Of a stretch of 64,000 nt of DNA, positions 58,327 to 64,000 are shown piece by piece (position 1 is the first letter of the stretch; each line of letters begins with the position of its first letter). The DNA lies in assembly GCF_058153355.1 (NCBI RefSeq), contig NZ_CM177019.1; one strand, given 5' to 3'. The notes beneath the pieces are model-generated. The model was not told the DNA's origin, made no database searches, and saw nothing but the letters and a program-made list of their open reading frames with translations. The translations under genes and the position numbers were made by a program.

Positions 58327-59007
58327 TTAGCGCAAAATTCCATACTCACTGCACAATAACCATTTCACCGGTTCATCTTCTTCTATCGCCGGAAAACGTC
58401 CTCCCGGCTCAAGAAAATAATTATCGTGTTGGTCATCATTTACCATCGAAATTTCCCAGCCGAGAACAAACGCTTTTTCCGCCCAGAAGCGATGATACAG
58501 ACGCGGCGGCAGGCAAATGCCCTGCCCCGGCTTTAGCACCAGCGTTTCACCAGGTTTCATGGTACGCCGCTGACCATCAACACTCACGGTAATGACTCGT
58601 TGATCATCACAGAGATTGGCTTCGTTGGCCCAGGCCAACTGCATGCATAAGTCTCCACCGCCCCGATTGAGGATATCTTCCATTTTGTGGGTGTGAAAAT
58701 GCCAGGGAGTCTGCTGATCTTGTTGGATCTGCAACATTTTCTCAGCATACGGTTTTGGATATGCCGCCGACCCCAGCGCGCCGTTGCGCATCGTTAGCAG
58801 TGTTAGTCCCGTTTGGTTGAAATCACCACGACCAAAATCGGTGATATCCCAACCGAGCTGTAAGTCGACTACTTCTTGCCAGTTATCCCGTTCCCGCTGC
58901 AGCCAGTCATCCACCGTAAAATAGGCGAACTCTGGCAAACAAACGCGGAAGGTCTGCGCAATGGCATGTGCTTTATCAATAACATAATTAATTTGTGAGC
59001 GTTTCAT
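58327..59007 (-). CDS. Cupin-superfamily sugar isomerase-like protein (D-lyxose/mannose isomerase-like)
   Basis: ORF track 58327..59046; likely start at MKRSQINYVIDKA (59007); the alternative is the upstream Met at 59046. Confidence 0.65.
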   Translation of the reverse strand: MKRSQINYVIDKAHAIAQTFRVCLPEFAYFTVDDWLQRERDNWQEVVDLQLGWDITDFGRGDFNQTGLTLLTMRNGALGSAAYPKPYAEKMLQIQQDQQTPWHFHTHKMEDILNRGGGDLCMQLAWANEANLCDDQRVITVSVDGQRRTMKPGETLVLKPGQGICLPPRLYHRFWAEKAFVLGWEISMVNDDQHDNYFLEPGGRFPAIEEDEPVKWLLCSEYGILR

Positions 59008-59076
59008 TGGCTTCTCCGTTGCGCATAGCAAGCCAGGCAGCGCCACGCATTCCGCTACTGTCGCCGTGCTGCGCTT

Positions 59077-59919
59077 TTACAATGGGAGTGGTGAATTGAT
59101 CGGTGAAAACCAGTGGAGCGACTTCTGCGTTAGATCGGTGATAAGCAGTTCCACATTCGAAAGCCCGCCGCCGATCACAATCACGCCAGGGTCAACAACG
59201 TTAACGATGGTTGCCAGCGTGCGGGCAAGCTGTTGGCGAAAACGTGCCACCTGCTGCATGGCACAAGCATCACCACGTTGTGCCAGGGTGACAATCGCCG
59301 CAGGAGTGAGCAAGTTACCAGTCATCTGTTGATAGCGTTCACTAAAACCGCTGCCGGAAACAAACGACTCCACGCAGTTGTGTTTGCCGCAATAGCAACT
59401 GACTGATGGACCATCTTCCTGCTCCGTATAGCCTGGCAACGTGATATGACCGCATTCGGCAGCATTTCCCCAGGCCCCTATAAACGGTCGTTGCTTGATG
59501 GCAATGCCACCGCCGCAGCCCGTGCCAAGCGTAATACCAAATACCACGTCATAATCTTGCCCGGCACCGTCGCAAGCTTCTGATAGCGCGAAACAGTTAC
59601 CATCATTGGCTATCACCACCGGTTGCCCAAGCAATTGCTGCAAATCAGCCTGTAACGCATGACCGTTAATCACCTGAATATTCGCATTTTTAATCAGGCC
59701 AGTGAGTGGCGAGATACTGCCGGGTAAGGCGATCCCTGTCAGCATCGGTCGTTGAACGTCCCGCCTAATCTGCTCGATAAGCGCCACAACGCATGAGACA
59801 AATTGTTGATATGTCGACTTTTGCGTCGGGCAGCGGTAACGGCGAATCTCCCAGCCATGCGCATCCATGACGACGGCGGCGATTTTGGTCCCACCAATAT
59901 CCAACCCCAGATAGTGCAT
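59077..59919 (-). CDS. ROK-family sugar kinase
   Basis: ORF track 59077..59952; start trimmed to MHYLGLDIGGTKIAAV (ROK ATP-binding motif); C-terminal CxCGxxxC zinc motif (CYCGKHNCVE). Confidence 0.8.
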   Translation of the reverse strand: MHYLGLDIGGTKIAAVVMDAHGWEIRRYRCPTQKSTYQQFVSCVVALIEQIRRDVQRPMLTGIALPGSISPLTGLIKNANIQVINGHALQADLQQLLGQPVVIANDGNCFALSEACDGAGQDYDVVFGITLGTGCGGGIAIKQRPFIGAWGNAAECGHITLPGYTEQEDGPSVSCYCGKHNCVESFVSGSGFSERYQQMTGNLLTPAAIVTLAQRGDACAMQQVARFRQQLARTLATIVNVVDPGVIVIGGGLSNVELLITDLTQKSLHWFSPINSPLPL

Positions 59920-59966
59920 ATCTCGTTCCTTGTTGCGTAAAAGGCGGGTCACCCCGCCCTTCTGGG

Positions 59967-60827
59967 TTAGTACAGTGATGCTTTACCGAGCGAACCGAAC
60001 AGTTTCATTTTGTGGCGAATGACTTCCCGCGCCGCGTTAATCGCATCCGGATAGATGACGTTCGGGTCCCACCAGCTCTCTTTAGCGAGAATTTCACGCA
60101 CTTTCTGGAAATAGGCGTATTTCATATCGCTGGAGATATTGATTTTGCCGACGCCGAGCGTAACTGATTCAGCAATCTCCGCGTCCGGGTTTGCCGAACC
60201 ACCGTGTAGCACCAGCGGAATATCAATACGTCCGGCAATGTCGCGCAAAATGTCCATTTGCAGCTTCGGTTGCATCCCTTTTGGATAGATGCCATGCGCT
60301 GTACCAATCGCCACAGCCAGTGTGTCGGCACCTGTACGAGCAATAAAATCGGCGGCCTGCGCCGGATCTGTGTAGGTCACTTGTGAAACACCACCTTCTA
60401 CCGACGTTCCTGTTTGTCCGATGGTTCCCAGTTCACCCTCAACCGACACGCCAACCGCGTGAGCGAGGCGAACCACTTCTGCGGTCAGCGCCACGTTTTC
60501 TTCATACGGCAGCAGCGAACCGTCGATCATTACTGAGGTAAATCCGCAGCGAATCGCACGCAAAACATGCTCTACAGAGGCACCATGATCGAGGTGCAGT
60601 ACAAACGGGACCGGACTACGCTGGGTAATTTCGCGAATGTGAGCGAAAAAAGCATCGCCCACAAAATCATGTTCGCTGGGATGGATGGCAATAATCGCCG
60701 GAGTATTTGTCGCTTCTGCTTCATCCACGACTGCGCGAAGGAAACAGTTATCCGCCACATTAAATGCGCCAATGGCAAAGCCGTGCTGGCGGGTAGGTTG
60801 CAGTAATTCTTTCATCGAAACTAACAT
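59967..60827 (-). CDS. Class II ketose-bisphosphate aldolase (tagatose/fructose-bisphosphate aldolase family, GatY/KbaY-like)
   Basis: 286 aa; zinc-ligand motifs LHLDHG, GTAHG, LVLHGGS. Confidence 0.85.
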   Translation of the reverse strand: MLVSMKELLQPTRQHGFAIGAFNVADNCFLRAVVDEAEATNTPAIIAIHPSEHDFVGDAFFAHIREITQRSPVPFVLHLDHGASVEHVLRAIRCGFTSVMIDGSLLPYEENVALTAEVVRLAHAVGVSVEGELGTIGQTGTSVEGGVSQVTYTDPAQAADFIARTGADTLAVAIGTAHGIYPKGMQPKLQMDILRDIAGRIDIPLVLHGGSANPDAEIAESVTLGVGKINISSDMKYAYFQKVREILAKESWWDPNVIYPDAINAAREVIRHKMKLFGSLGKASLY

Positions 60828-60907
60828 GTTAAATCTCCAGTTTCAGCGTGTAGTCCGCCCTGCCGGTGCGTTATTGCACTGGCATAAAGGCCATGACAGA
60901 AAATGAA

Positions 60908-62862: not shown

Positions 62863-62886
62863 ATTAAGATCCCTCCAGTATAAGGA

Positions 62887-63201
62887 TCATTTGTTTCCCA
62901 GTGATTTTTCGACCTTTTCAAGAAATTGAACGGGCGATTTAATGACGATCTCTGTCTTTACTCGCACAATACGTTTATTGGTGAAGCGTTCTTCTCCTTT
63001 TATTTTCACATCTACAGCAAGAATCACGACGTCAGCAGCAGAGATATCTGCCGCCTGTAATTCATTTTCTGTACCAATGGTTCCCTGGGTTTCAACTTTA
63101 ATGGTATGGCCCAGAGCTTTTGCTCCTTTGATTAACTTTTCACGAGCAATATAGGTATGAGCAATACCCGCCGTACAGGCGGCAACACAGACAATATTCA
63201 T
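62887..63201 (-). CDS. PTS fructose-family EIIB component
   Basis: 104 aa; N-terminal phospho-cysteine motif (VCVAACTAGIAHTY). Confidence 0.85.
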   Translation of the reverse strand: MNIVCVAACTAGIAHTYIAREKLIKGAKALGHTIKVETQGTIGTENELQAADISAADVVILAVDVKIKGEERFTNKRIVRVKTEIVIKSPVQFLEKVEKSLGNK

Positions 63202-63218
63202 GACATACTCTCTGTTAT

Positions 63219-63689
63219 TTAGCAGACATCGGATTGTGCATACTGACTAAAGAGATCAATGATTTTTTGCGGACTCGTCTCAACTAACAATTGTTCTATG
63301 ATGTCATCATCCGCCAGCGCGCCCGCGACCTGGGAAAGTAAACGGATATGGGTGGTATTTTGATCTTCAAGACGTACCGCAAATAAAATAATACAGCGCA
63401 CGCTACTGCCATCCAGCGTTTCCCAGGGAATATCCTGCCGGGTACGGCCAATTGCCAGCGTAGTATTAATCACAGCTGAAGATTTACCATGCGGGATCGC
63501 AATATGATTTTCAAAACCAGTCGAGCCTTCCGCTTCGCGCTGCCAGACATCTTTAATAAAGGTTTCCCGACAATCGATCGCACCATCTTTTTTGAGAAGA
63601 TTAGTTAATTCTTCAATCGCCTCCGCTTTATTCGTCGCTTGCATATCTAAAATAACGCGATTCGTATTCAGGATTTTTGTTATGTCCAT
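63219..63689 (-). CDS. PTS fructose/mannitol-family EIIA component
   Basis: 156 aa; IAIPHGK phospho-histidine motif. Confidence 0.85.
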   Translation of the reverse strand: MDITKILNTNRVILDMQATNKAEAIEELTNLLKKDGAIDCRETFIKDVWQREAEGSTGFENHIAIPHGKSSAVINTTLAIGRTRQDIPWETLDGSSVRCIILFAVRLEDQNTTHIRLLSQVAGALADDDIIEQLLVETSPQKIIDLFSQYAQSDVC

Positions 63690-63722
63690 TCGTCATACCT
63701 CATAAAATTCTGACATTAAATT

Positions 63723-64000
63723 TTAACGACCCGAGACGTCGCATGATGTAATTTTTCCGTAATCACCATTTCAGTGCCCCGCTTAATATCGGCATCATTA
63801 AAAAAAGCGGTAACATAAGCGACCGGCATAGTGACTGTAGGCAAATTAATGGTCGAAATAATCAGTTCGATATTGTCAGGCAAAACCTGTGATAAATTCG
63901 CTGCTGAAATAACATCAACAATCGTCCATTCAGGAAATGCTCGTAGAATACGGCTTTTCAGTAGATGCGAAGTTCCGATTCCGGTTGAACAGACCAGTAA
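63723..64000 (-). CDS. C-terminal part of a PTS-regulated transcriptional activator (PRD/EIIB-like domain; FrzR-like); 5' end beyond the window
   Basis: Minus-strand frame is open to the window edge and translates …LLVCSTGIGTSHLLKSRILRAFPEWTIVDVIS…; absent from the ORF track because no start codon lies inside the window. Coordinates approximate to ±3 bp. Confidence 0.5.

What the first reader, a model, noticed from the sequence alone, without database searches (positions are those of the whole stretch)
58327..64000. Accessory PTS/aldolase/kinase/cupin island between yicH and the window end (frz-like operon)
Minus-strand operon of a PRD-type activator (partial), EIIA, EIIB and EIIC of the fructose family, two paralogous class II ketose-bisphosphate aldolases, a ROK kinase and a cupin isomerase-like protein. 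This gene set and its location next to yicH match the frz operon described in extraintestinal pathogenic E. coli, which is absent from K-12. The substrate is unknown. Both aldolase paralogs keep the zinc ligands, so it is unclear why there are two.
Basis: partly seen in the sequence, partly recalled or inferred. Interest (0 to 1): 0.6.

Follow-up and report, generated by a model that had tools for sequence, protein, structure and literature searches.

The report
Known frz sugar operon, kinase broken
This is the already described frz sugar-uptake and breakdown operon of pathogenic E. coli, sitting where it is expected between yicH and yicI, but in this strain its kinase gene is broken by a one-base deletion.

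Summary
Window 58327-64000 (minus strand) carries the 3' end of a PRD-type activator, then EIIA, EIIB and EIIC of the fructose PTS family, two class II aldolase paralogs, a ROK kinase and a cupin of the D-lyxose/D-mannose isomerase family.

It is the published frz operon:
- 99.3-99.4% identical to the locus in LF82 and EC958.
- Located between yicH and yicI.
- Absent from K-12.
- Present in 1605 of 5426 complete E. coli genomes.
- The published frz PCR primers match exactly, giving an 843-bp amplicon, 22 bp past the window end in contigs identical to the window.

Corrections and additions:
1. The ROK gene is frameshifted here (280 aa instead of 310). The same deletion is present in a second, distinct strain.
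2. ROK is absent or a remnant in Citrobacter, a Klebsiella and Izhakiella copies of the operon, so it looks dispensable.
3. The locus is linked to yicH and/or yicI in three other genera, and its proteins are about as conserved as the flanking core genes. It is probably an old enterobacterial locus lost by K-12-like lineages.
4. Within E. coli it is 3-30 times less diverged at synonymous sites than its flanks, which points to spread by recombination.
5. Both aldolases keep the zinc ligands but lack the arginine that binds the distal phosphate, and AldA lacks two further phosphate ligands.

The substrate remains unknown. Novelty: already known.

The parts
63716..64000 (-). frzR, last 94 codons plus stop (EIIB(Gat)-like C-terminal domain with the motif CSTGIGTS). 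The full gene is 517 aa and continues beyond the window end.
   Evidence: Translation. The full-length gene in L004 (100% identical to the window where they overlap) has HTH_11, Mga, two PRD domains and PTS_IIB in Pfam, and no EIIA domain. Annotated as a BglG-family protein in LF82.
63219..63689 (-). EIIA of the fructose/mannitol type, 156 aa, with the phosphorylatable His in IPHG (His67)
   Evidence: TIGR00848 scores 127 bits against a cut-off of 103.5. PF00359. Motif position.
62887..63201 (-). EIIB of the fructose type, 104 aa, with the active-site Cys in ACTAGIAHT (Cys9)
   Evidence: TIGR00829 scores 100 bits against a cut-off of 76.85. PF02302. Motif position.
61771..62862 (-). EIIC of the fructose family, 363 aa (membrane permease)
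   Evidence: TIGR01427 scores 312 bits against a cut-off of 157.55. 89-96% identical to orthologs in other genera.
60908..61759 (-). Aldolase A (AldA), 283 aa, a divergent class II (PF01116) paralog. It keeps Asp81, His82, His178 and His208. It has Ala233, Phe236 and Ser252 where KbaY has Thr233, Lys236 and Arg257.
   Evidence: Scores below every NCBIfam cut-off. Alignment A1. Residue positions. Roles of the residues from PMC10665668 and the KbaY/SqiA alignment.
59967..60827 (-). Aldolase B (AldB), 286 aa, class II (PF01116). It keeps Asp80, His81, His178, His208, Ser233 and Lys236, but has Asn256 where KbaY has Arg257.
   Evidence: NF006042 (an uncharacterised subfamily) scores 525 bits against a cut-off of 405. 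It is below the equivalog cut-offs for FBP and TBP aldolases. Alignment A1. Only 33% identical to AldA.
59077..59919 (-). ROK sugar kinase pseudogene. A 1-bp deletion (GATCT[G]AACG) near 59132 leaves residues 1-262 native, followed by 18 out-of-frame residues and a stop. The original reading frame continues intact to 58988.
   Evidence: Comparison with LF82. The intact form is 310 aa. The same deletion is present in L003 and L004.
58327..59007 (-). Cupin of the D-lyxose/D-mannose isomerase family, 226 aa. Metal motif H103-x-H105...K108-x-E110 and His172 are present.
   Evidence: PF07385. NF051472 scores 272 bits against a cut-off of 350. PDB 3KMH (E. coli O157 D-lyxose isomerase) matches at E=4e-64, aligned end to end. 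Motif definition from PMC8378251.
58284..58326 (.). Spacer between the convergent yicH and cupin genes, containing the hairpin ACGCTAGCG-N8-CGCTAGCGT. This is the left edge of the frz segment relative to K-12.
   Evidence: Terminator-like site at 58317-58292. Junction comparison with K-12. No flanking direct or inverted repeats.

Best explanation
The region is the frz operon, a substrate-inducible PTS-linked catabolic operon for a sugar that has not been identified.

Supported by sequence and family matches:
- FrzR is a DNA-binding PRD activator with HTH, Mga, two PRD domains and an EIIB-like domain.
- EIIA, EIIB and EIIC form a fructose-family PTS permease.
- The operon also encodes two zinc-type class II aldolases, a ROK kinase and a Mn-type cupin aldose-ketose isomerase.

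Inferred pathway:
1. The permease takes up the sugar and phosphorylates it, probably at C1 as fructose-type permeases do.
2. The product is cleaved directly by the aldolase pair into DHAP and an unphosphorylated aldehyde or aldose. The reasons are that the operon has no PfkB/FruK-type kinase to make a 1,6-bisphosphate, and that both aldolases lack the arginine that binds the distal phosphate in FBP and TBP aldolases.
3. The cupin isomerase and the ROK kinase then recover the unphosphorylated product, or a free aldose form of the substrate.
4. The kinase step is redundant with housekeeping kinases, which would explain why it is frameshifted here and missing in other genera.
5. FrzR is presumably switched by PTS-dependent phosphorylation of its PRD and EIIB-like domains.

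Evolution: the operon is an old enterobacterial locus in the yicH-yicI region, lost in K-12-like E. coli and moved between E. coli lineages by homologous recombination.
For: - Identity with frz: 99.3-99.4% to LF82 and EC958. Position between yicH and yicI, matching GR27 of BEN2908. Exact primer matches with an 843-bp amplicon. K-12 lacks it.
- Gene functions: NCBIfam, Pfam and PDB matches.
- Operon structure: one strand, 11-80 nt spacers, terminator-like hairpin after the cupin.
- No PfkB-type kinase in any of six loci from five genera.
- Aldolase residues: KbaY Arg257 aligns with Ala257 of the sulfofructose-1-phosphate aldolase SqiA. It corresponds to the partner-protomer 6-phosphate ligand Arg280 of H. 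pylori FBA (PMC10665668). In all six orthologs AldB has Asn at this position, and AldA has Ser, Gly or Arg, in a stretch where AldA aligns poorly.
- ROK dispensability: frameshift here. Clean absence in C. braakii and Klebsiella sp. MISC125. Internal-deletion remnant in Izhakiella. Lowest cross-genus identity of the eight proteins, 63-75%.
- Old locus: frz lies beside yicH and/or yicI in Citrobacter, Klebsiella and Phytobacter. Its proteins are 77-96% identical to C. braakii, against 82-95% for the flanking genes.
- Recombination: dS against LF82 is 0.00-0.046 in frz genes and 0.10-0.17 in gltS, yicH and yicI. The breakpoints lie at about 57.9 kb and 65.4 kb.
Against: - No substrate has been identified in any source I could read, and the original paper (Rouquet 2009) was not available in the library.
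- The reported phenotypes (fitness under stress, type 1 fimbriae) do not point to a specific sugar.
- The monophosphate-aldolase reading rests on three or four residues and on one precedent (SqiA). AldB keeps Lys236, so a bisphosphate substrate is not excluded.
- ROK and the cupin could act before transport-linked steps rather than after them.
- AldA lacks the Thr that binds the 1-phosphate, so it may not be an aldolase for the same substrate at all.
- In this strain the ROK frameshift, and in a sister strain a 17-residue EIIC deletion, may mean the operon is decaying rather than working.
Confidence: 0.6

Rival explanations
1. Classical bisphosphate pathway, as in the published annotation. The PTS delivers a ketose phosphate, a kinase (the ROK enzyme or a housekeeping phosphofructokinase-like enzyme) adds the second phosphate, and the two paralogs are ketose-1,6-bisphosphate aldolases with different stereospecificity, for example fructo versus tagato, psico or sorbo configuration. 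The products are DHAP and glyceraldehyde 3-phosphate.
For: Both paralogs match class II FBP and TBP aldolase models at E-values of 1e-50 to 1e-83 and keep all metal and catalytic residues. AldB keeps Lys236, the equivalent of the in-protomer distal-phosphate ligand. RefSeq names them ketose-bisphosphate aldolase and class II FBP aldolase.
Against: Neither reaches an equivalog cut-off for FBP or TBP aldolase. Both lack the Arg257 equivalent, and AldA also lacks Lys236 and Thr233. Characterised ROK kinases phosphorylate free sugars, not sugar phosphates (established knowledge of Mak, NagK and AlsK). ROK is absent from several orthologous operons and broken here. No PfkB-type kinase is present in any of the loci.
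Confidence: 0.25
2. Only one paralog (AldB) is the aldolase. AldA is either a 4-epimerase-like enzyme working by retro-aldol and aldol chemistry, or a partner subunit needed for AldB stability or activity, as GatZ and KbaZ are for GatY and KbaY.
For: AldA has lost three phosphate-contacting side chains but keeps the zinc ligands and Asp. It is conserved at 77-84% across genera and always lies directly upstream of AldB. Class II FbaA can epimerise F6P to T6P (PMC5434028). K-12 annotates KbaZ and GatZ as aldolase chaperones.
Against: GatZ and KbaZ belong to a different family from PF01116, so there is no direct precedent for a PF01116 paralog acting as a chaperone. Retention of every catalytic residue suggests AldA is an enzyme.
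Confidence: 0.2
3. In this particular strain the operon is a decaying remnant with no current function.
For: ROK is frameshifted. The neighbouring xanP is also frameshifted. A sister genome has a 51-bp deletion in EIIC.
Against: The seven other genes are intact, with dN far below dS. The out-of-frame ROK tail is still otherwise intact, so the lesion is recent. ROK-less versions of the operon are maintained in other genera.
Confidence: 0.15

Closest known systems
frz operon of ExPEC/APEC strain BEN2908 (Rouquet et al. 2009, J Bacteriol 191:4427; GR27 in PMC12928451)
   Same: Same eight genes in the same order, at the same site between yicH and yicI. 99.3-99.4% identical to the copies in LF82 and EC958. 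The diagnostic primers match exactly.
   Different: The ROK kinase is frameshifted. The host is a rarely sampled E. coli lineage, at most 98.1-98.6% identical to any of 5426 complete genomes across 55 kb of the window outside the frz block.
Galactitol and N-acetylgalactosamine pathways of E. coli (gat and aga operons: PTS plus GatY/GatZ or KbaY/KbaZ tagatose-bisphosphate aldolase)
   Same: A PTS permease is coupled to a short class II (PF01116) aldolase. AldA and AldB are 33-35% identical to KbaY, with the same zinc and Asp residues.
   Different: frz has a fructose-family rather than a galactitol- or mannose-family permease. It has no GatZ/KbaZ-type partner but a second PF01116 paralog instead. 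It lacks Arg257. It has no dehydrogenase or deaminase.
Class II sulfofructose-1-phosphate aldolase SqiA (PDB 8Q57-8Q5A; PMC10665668)
   Same: A PF01116 enzyme that cleaves a ketose 1-phosphate without a distal phosphate and has lost the partner-protomer Arg (Ala257). The frz aldolases have also lost this Arg.
   Different: frz has none of the sulfoglycolysis partners (SQ isomerase PF07221 or PF02952, SLA reductase or dehydrogenase). Similarity to SqiA is no higher than to KbaY.
D-lyxose/D-mannose isomerase Z5688 of E. coli O157:H7 (PDB 3KMH, 3MPB)
   Same: Same Pfam family (PF07385). Aligned end to end (E=4e-64), with the metal and catalytic motifs conserved.
   Different: Scores below the NCBIfam equivalog cut-off (272 against 350), so the substrate need not be D-lyxose or D-mannose. 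The genomic context is different.
PRD-containing activators of the MtlR/LicR/Mga class
   Same: HTH, Mga, PRD, PRD and EIIB(Gat)-like domain order.
   Different: No C-terminal EIIA(Mtl)-like domain. A separate EIIA gene follows directly.

Membership tests
frz operon (E. coli ExPEC/APEC) | Gene content: PTS activator, EIIA, EIIB and EIIC of the fructose family, two class II aldolases, ROK kinase, cupin protein, all in one operon | tested here: met
   ROK is present but frameshifted.
frz operon (E. coli ExPEC/APEC) | Chromosomal position between yicH and yicI | tested here: met
   yicH ends 43 nt from the cupin gene. yicI follows frzR in L003 and L004, which are identical to the window where they overlap. 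GR27 is listed as yicH..yicI in PMC12928451.
frz operon (E. coli ExPEC/APEC) | Near-identity to the locus in reference ExPEC/AIEC genomes | tested here: met
   99.4% to LF82 and 99.3% to EC958 over 5717 bases. 1605 of 5426 genomes carry it.
frz operon (E. coli ExPEC/APEC) | Published diagnostic PCR primers give an 843-bp amplicon | tested here: met
   Exact matches 843 bp apart in frzR of L004, L003, L001 and L013. The primer sequences come from PMC6238794. The amplicon starts 22 bp beyond the window end, so the primers are not inside the window.
frz operon (E. coli ExPEC/APEC) | Absent from K-12 | tested here: met
   In MG1655 yicH and yicI are separated by 52 bp.
frz operon (E. coli ExPEC/APEC) | Phenotypes: fitness under stress, promotion of type 1 fimbriae | not testable with these tools
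   Known only from secondary accounts (PMC8777976; PMC12928451).
Fructose-family PTS EII | Family models above the curated cut-off, and phosphorylation-site His (EIIA) and Cys (EIIB) present | tested here: met
   TIGR00848, TIGR00829 and TIGR01427 all score above their cut-offs. IPHG and ACTAGIAHT motifs are present.
Class II FBP or TBP aldolase (equivalogs) | Zinc ligands (His83, His180, His208) and the catalytic Asp82, in KbaY numbering | tested here: met
   Invariant in both paralogs and in all orthologs.
Class II FBP or TBP aldolase (equivalogs) | Score above the curated equivalog cut-off | tested here: not met
   AldA reaches at most 210 bits against a cut-off of 343. AldB reaches 278 against 423 and 229 against 444. 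AldB passes only the uncharacterised subfamily NF006042.
Class II FBP or TBP aldolase (equivalogs) | Distal (C6) phosphate ligands: the Arg257 equivalent (partner protomer) and the Lys/Arg236 equivalent | tested here: not met
   At the Arg257 position AldB has Asn and AldA in the window has Ser. At position 236 AldB has Lys and AldA has Phe. Residue roles from PMC10665668.
D-lyxose/D-mannose isomerase (NF051472 equivalog) | Score above the cut-off, and the cupin metal motif | tested here: inconclusive
   The motif is present and the protein is in PF07385, but it scores 272 bits against a cut-off of 350.
ROK fructokinase Mak (NF007108 equivalog) | Score above the cut-off, and an intact protein | tested here: not met
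   The intact LF82 ortholog scores 319 bits against a cut-off of 443. The window copy is truncated after residue 262.
PRD-containing transcriptional activator (MtlR/LicR class) | HTH and Mga DNA-binding region, two PRD domains, and EIIB-like and EIIA-like regulatory domains | tested here: inconclusive
   HTH_11, Mga, two PRD domains and PTS_IIB were found. No EIIA domain was found.

The most novel reading that the evidence does not exclude
The frz 'ketose-bisphosphate aldolases' are not bisphosphate aldolases. The fructose-type permease makes a ketose 1-phosphate that AldB cleaves directly, as SqiA cleaves sulfofructose 1-phosphate. This would release DHAP and a free aldose or aldehyde, which the cupin isomerase recovers, with the optional ROK kinase completing the step. 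AldA, which has lost three phosphate ligands but keeps the catalytic metal site, would carry out a second, different reaction. That would define a new PTS-linked route for an unusual sugar and give a rational substrate panel for an operon whose substrate has been unknown since 2009.
Probability: 0.3. Interest if true: 0.5.

Novelty: already known. Interest (0 to 1): 0.2.

Why it matters
frz is used as a virulence-associated marker in avian and human extraintestinal E. coli, yet its substrate is still unknown. Three points from this analysis narrow the biochemical search. The conserved core is seven genes. The ROK kinase is repeatedly lost. Both aldolases lack the distal-phosphate arginine. Together these suggest testing ketose 1-phosphates rather than bisphosphates, and testing AldA separately from AldB. 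The analysis also cautions against reading frz as an ExPEC-specific acquisition. It looks like an old enterobacterial locus that many E. coli lineages have lost and that recombination moves between lineages. For this window the practical message is that the finding is a correct identification of a known operon carrying one inactivating lesion.

Tried and rejected
- The original frz paper (doi 10.1128/JB.00103-09, PMC2698472) is not held in the library. I relied on secondary accounts and on my own recollection of its abstract.
- The published frz primers do not match inside the window. They lie in the part of frzR just beyond the window end.
- A scan of GTDB species-representative genomes for a 43-mer spanning the ROK frameshift found nothing. 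The source genome is therefore not a species representative. The exact YicH protein is labelled E. coli in NCBI.
- I first suspected a cryptic Escherichia clade, because the flanks are only about 95% identical to LF82. I dropped that idea because LF82 and K-12 show the same dS at these genes. The lineage is still rare.
- I considered a link to sulfoquinovose breakdown because of the SqiA-like loss of Arg257. I rejected it because none of the sulfo-EMP partner families is present and similarity to SqiA is no higher than to KbaY.
- I looked for mobile-element signatures. There are no direct or inverted repeats at the edges, no integrase or IS in the locus and no Rfam match.
- The context of distant cupin homologs in a Clostridiales metagenome was uninformative.
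- Literature searches found no report of a frz substrate.

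
Full report
**1. What is there**

The ORF list shows a run of minus-strand genes from 58327 to the window end:
- a 226-aa cupin at 58327-59007. The longest ORF starts at a GTG at 59046, but the ATG at 59007 has a GGAGAA ribosome-binding site and is the RefSeq start;
- a ROK protein at 59077-59919;
- a 286-aa aldolase, here called AldB, at 59967-60827;
- a 283-aa aldolase, here called AldA, at 60908-61759;
- EIIC at 61771-62862, EIIB at 62887-63201 and EIIA at 63219-63689;
- the last 94 codons of a regulator at 63716-64000.

Spacers are 11-80 nt. 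A hairpin followed by a T-run lies after the cupin gene, in the 43-nt gap to the convergent yicH. No Rfam family matches the region.

NCBIfam places the three PTS parts above the curated cut-offs of the fructose-family models. The full regulator was read from contig L004, which is 100% identical to the window over 10.5 kb. It has HTH_11, Mga, two PRD domains and a PTS_IIB-like domain, but no EIIA domain.

**2. It is the frz operon**

- The 5717 bases after yicH match 1605 of 5426 complete E. coli genomes over their full length. The best matches are 99.4% (LF82) and 99.3% (ST131 strain EC958).
- In LF82 the block lies between yicH and yicI. K-12 MG1655 has yicH and yicI 52 bp apart with nothing between them.
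- The BEN2908 genome paper lists the frz operon as genomic region GR27, bounded by yicH and yicI, about 7.2 kb long and complete in LF82 (PMC12928451).
- The published frz PCR primers (PMC6238794) match exactly, 843 bp apart as published, in frzR of L004, L003, LF82 and Z0117EC0005. The amplicon begins 22 bp past the window end, which is why the primers do not match the window itself.
- Secondary accounts describe frz as promoting survival under oxygen restriction and in late stationary phase, and as promoting type 1 fimbriae (PMC8777976). None of the papers I could search names a substrate. The original paper is not held. Its gene list, as I remember the abstract, is the one found here.

**3. 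The kinase is broken in this strain**

- Relative to LF82, and to every listed hit (record span 5718 against a query of 5717), the window lacks one base near 59132 (GATCT[G]AACG).
- The ROK protein is native to residue 262, just after the GGGLSN motif, then has 18 out-of-frame residues and a stop. It is 280 aa instead of 310.
- The old frame downstream is still open and differs from LF82 by one residue, so the lesion is recent.
- It is not a read error. The site is not a homopolymer. The same deletion is in NCBI assembly GCA_015332025.1 (L003) and in a Logan assembly (L004). L003 is a different strain, because it also has a 51-bp in-frame deletion in EIIC between two AAATCCGG repeats.
- The intact ROK gene overlaps the cupin start by 20 nt. 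Here there is a 69-nt gap, so any translational coupling between the two is lost. That coupling is an inference.
- The loss of the C-terminal 48 residues is likely to inactivate the kinase, because in ROK/ASKHA kinases the C-terminal helix packs against the N-terminal domain. This rests on established structural knowledge and was not tested here.

**4. Comparative genomics**

Homologs of the cupin at 70-82% identity occur in Citrobacter, Klebsiella, Raoultella, Phytobacter, Kluyvera, Izhakiella and some Salmonella. Gene neighbourhoods show two forms:
- The full eight-gene operon is present in Phytobacter (next to yicH) and in Klebsiella aerogenes (next to yicI, with yicH a few genes away).
- A seven-gene form without ROK is present in Citrobacter braakii (between yicI and yicH) and Klebsiella sp. 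MISC125.
- Izhakiella has the seven genes plus a ROK remnant covering residues 1-127 and 270-302.

ROK is also the least conserved of the eight proteins across genera, at 63-75% against 70-96% for the others. Together with the frameshift here, this indicates repeated loss of a dispensable gene around a conserved seven-gene core.

frz proteins are 77-96% identical between E. coli and C. braakii. The flanking YicH, YicI and XanP are 82, 89 and 95% identical. With the shared position, this favours an old enterobacterial locus that was lost in K-12-like E. coli over a foreign island. There are no flanking repeats, integrase or IS.

**5. Spread within E. coli**

Synonymous divergence between the window lineage and LF82 is 0.10-0.17 in gltS, yicH and yicI. 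That is the same as between LF82 and K-12. In the frz genes it is only 0.00-0.046.

SNP density drops at about 57.9 kb, inside the 3' end of yicH. It rises again at about 65.4 kb in extrapolated window coordinates, near the frzR-yicI spacer seen in L004. The frz block has therefore been exchanged between lineages by homologous recombination.

A further sign of mosaicism comes from strain Z0117EC0005. There aldB alone has dS 0.22 against both other alleles.

The window's genome is itself a rarely sampled E. coli. Its best identity to any complete genome is 98.1-98.6% over the 55 kb of the window that were compared outside the frz block. Its exact YicH protein is labelled E. coli in NCBI.

**6. 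Why two aldolases**

In an alignment with K-12 KbaY and GatY and orthologs from five genera, Asp82, His83, Glu132, Glu134, His180, His208, Ser211 and Asn230 (KbaY numbering) are invariant.

The paralogs are only 33% identical to each other, and they differ at the phosphate-binding positions. The structural study of class II sulfofructose-1-phosphate aldolases gives the roles of these residues (PMC10665668):
- The 1-phosphate is held by Ser211 and Thr233.
- In FBP aldolases the 6-phosphate is held by an in-protomer Arg (H. pylori Arg259) and a partner-protomer Arg (Arg280). SqiA has Ala257 in place of Arg280.

An ungapped alignment of KbaY with SqiA shows that KbaY Arg257, in the DPR motif, is that position. 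By spacing, KbaY Lys236 corresponds to Arg259. This second mapping is my inference.

| KbaY position | Role | AldB | AldA |
|---|---|---|---|
| Thr233 | 1-phosphate ligand | Ser233 | Ala233 |
| Lys236 | in-protomer distal-phosphate ligand (inferred) | Lys236 | Phe236 |
| Arg257 | partner-protomer distal-phosphate ligand | Asn256 | Ser252 |

Neither protein reaches an FBP or TBP aldolase equivalog cut-off. AldB passes only an uncharacterised subfamily model.

The operon contains no PfkB/FruK-type kinase in any genus, and the only kinase is dispensable. The most coherent reading is therefore that the PTS product, a ketose 1-phosphate, is cleaved directly, and that AldA does something different from AldB. 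This is an inference. A bisphosphate substrate is not excluded.

**7. The isomerase and the kinase**

The cupin aligns end to end with the E. coli O157 D-lyxose isomerase (PDB 3KMH, E=4e-64). It keeps the H-x-H...K-x-E and His metal and catalytic motif. It scores below the equivalog cut-off, 272 against 350.

The intact ROK protein is closest to the fructokinase Mak, but also below cut-off, 319 against 443.

Characterised members of both families act on unphosphorylated sugars. I therefore place them on a free aldose, either the non-phosphorylated cleavage product or a free form of the substrate.

A Salmonella island again pairs this cupin with a PF01116 aldolase that lacks the Arg. There the partners are an MFS transporter, a mutarotase, a PfkB kinase and a dehydrogenase. 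This supports a functional isomerase-aldolase module.

**8. Verdict**

The finding is a correct recognition of a known operon, so the novelty rating is 'already known'. The new points are modest:
- a ROK pseudogene in this lineage;
- a seven-gene conserved core with recurrent ROK loss;
- evidence for an old locus spread by recombination;
- residue-level reasons to doubt the 'bisphosphate aldolase' label.

The substrate question stays open and needs experiments.

Noticed in passing
window 55064-56453 (+): xanP (xanthine permease) is split into 325-aa and 151-aa ORFs by a 2-bp deletion near 55981, relative to LF82 and K-12. The same lesion is present in the L003 and L004 contigs, so it is a real pseudogene in this lineage.
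   Followed up: partly
L003:15984-15991, equivalent to window 62565-62615: A sister genome (GCA_015332025.1) is otherwise identical to the window over 17 kb. It has a 51-bp in-frame deletion in the frz EIIC gene between two AAATCCGG direct repeats, removing about residues 84-100.
   Followed up: partly
window 53406-53560: A 155-bp segment in the recG-gltS spacer is absent from LF82. It looks like a REP/BIME-type intergenic element.
   Followed up: no
L013:16971-17831 (E. coli Z0117EC0005): The aldB gene alone has dS 0.22 (40 synonymous and 2 non-synonymous differences) against both the window lineage and LF82, while neighbouring frz genes are nearly identical. This is a mosaic allele imported into the middle of the operon.
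   Followed up: partly
L006:7598-14541 (Salmonella enterica island next to an integrase): A non-PTS cluster contains an MFS transporter, aldose epimerase, Lyx_isomer cupin (62% identical), PF01116 aldolase, PfkB kinase, Zn alcohol dehydrogenase and a DeoR regulator. It pairs the cupin with a class II aldolase again, and that aldolase also lacks the Arg257 equivalent.
   Followed up: partly
window 1-53000: Across waa, coaBC, spoT, recG and neighbouring core genes, the best identity to any of 5426 complete E. coli genomes is only 98.2-98.6%. The closest are strains N96, EC42405 and 2020CK-00188. The source is therefore a rarely sampled E. coli lineage.
   Followed up: partly
L005:9951-10001 and L009:9936-10001: In the ROK-less operons of C. 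braakii and Klebsiella sp. MISC125, the aldB-cupin spacer contains a GC-rich hairpin (GGCGGGGTGACCCGCC or GGCGGGGTAACCCGCC) where the ROK gene lies in E. coli.
   Followed up: no
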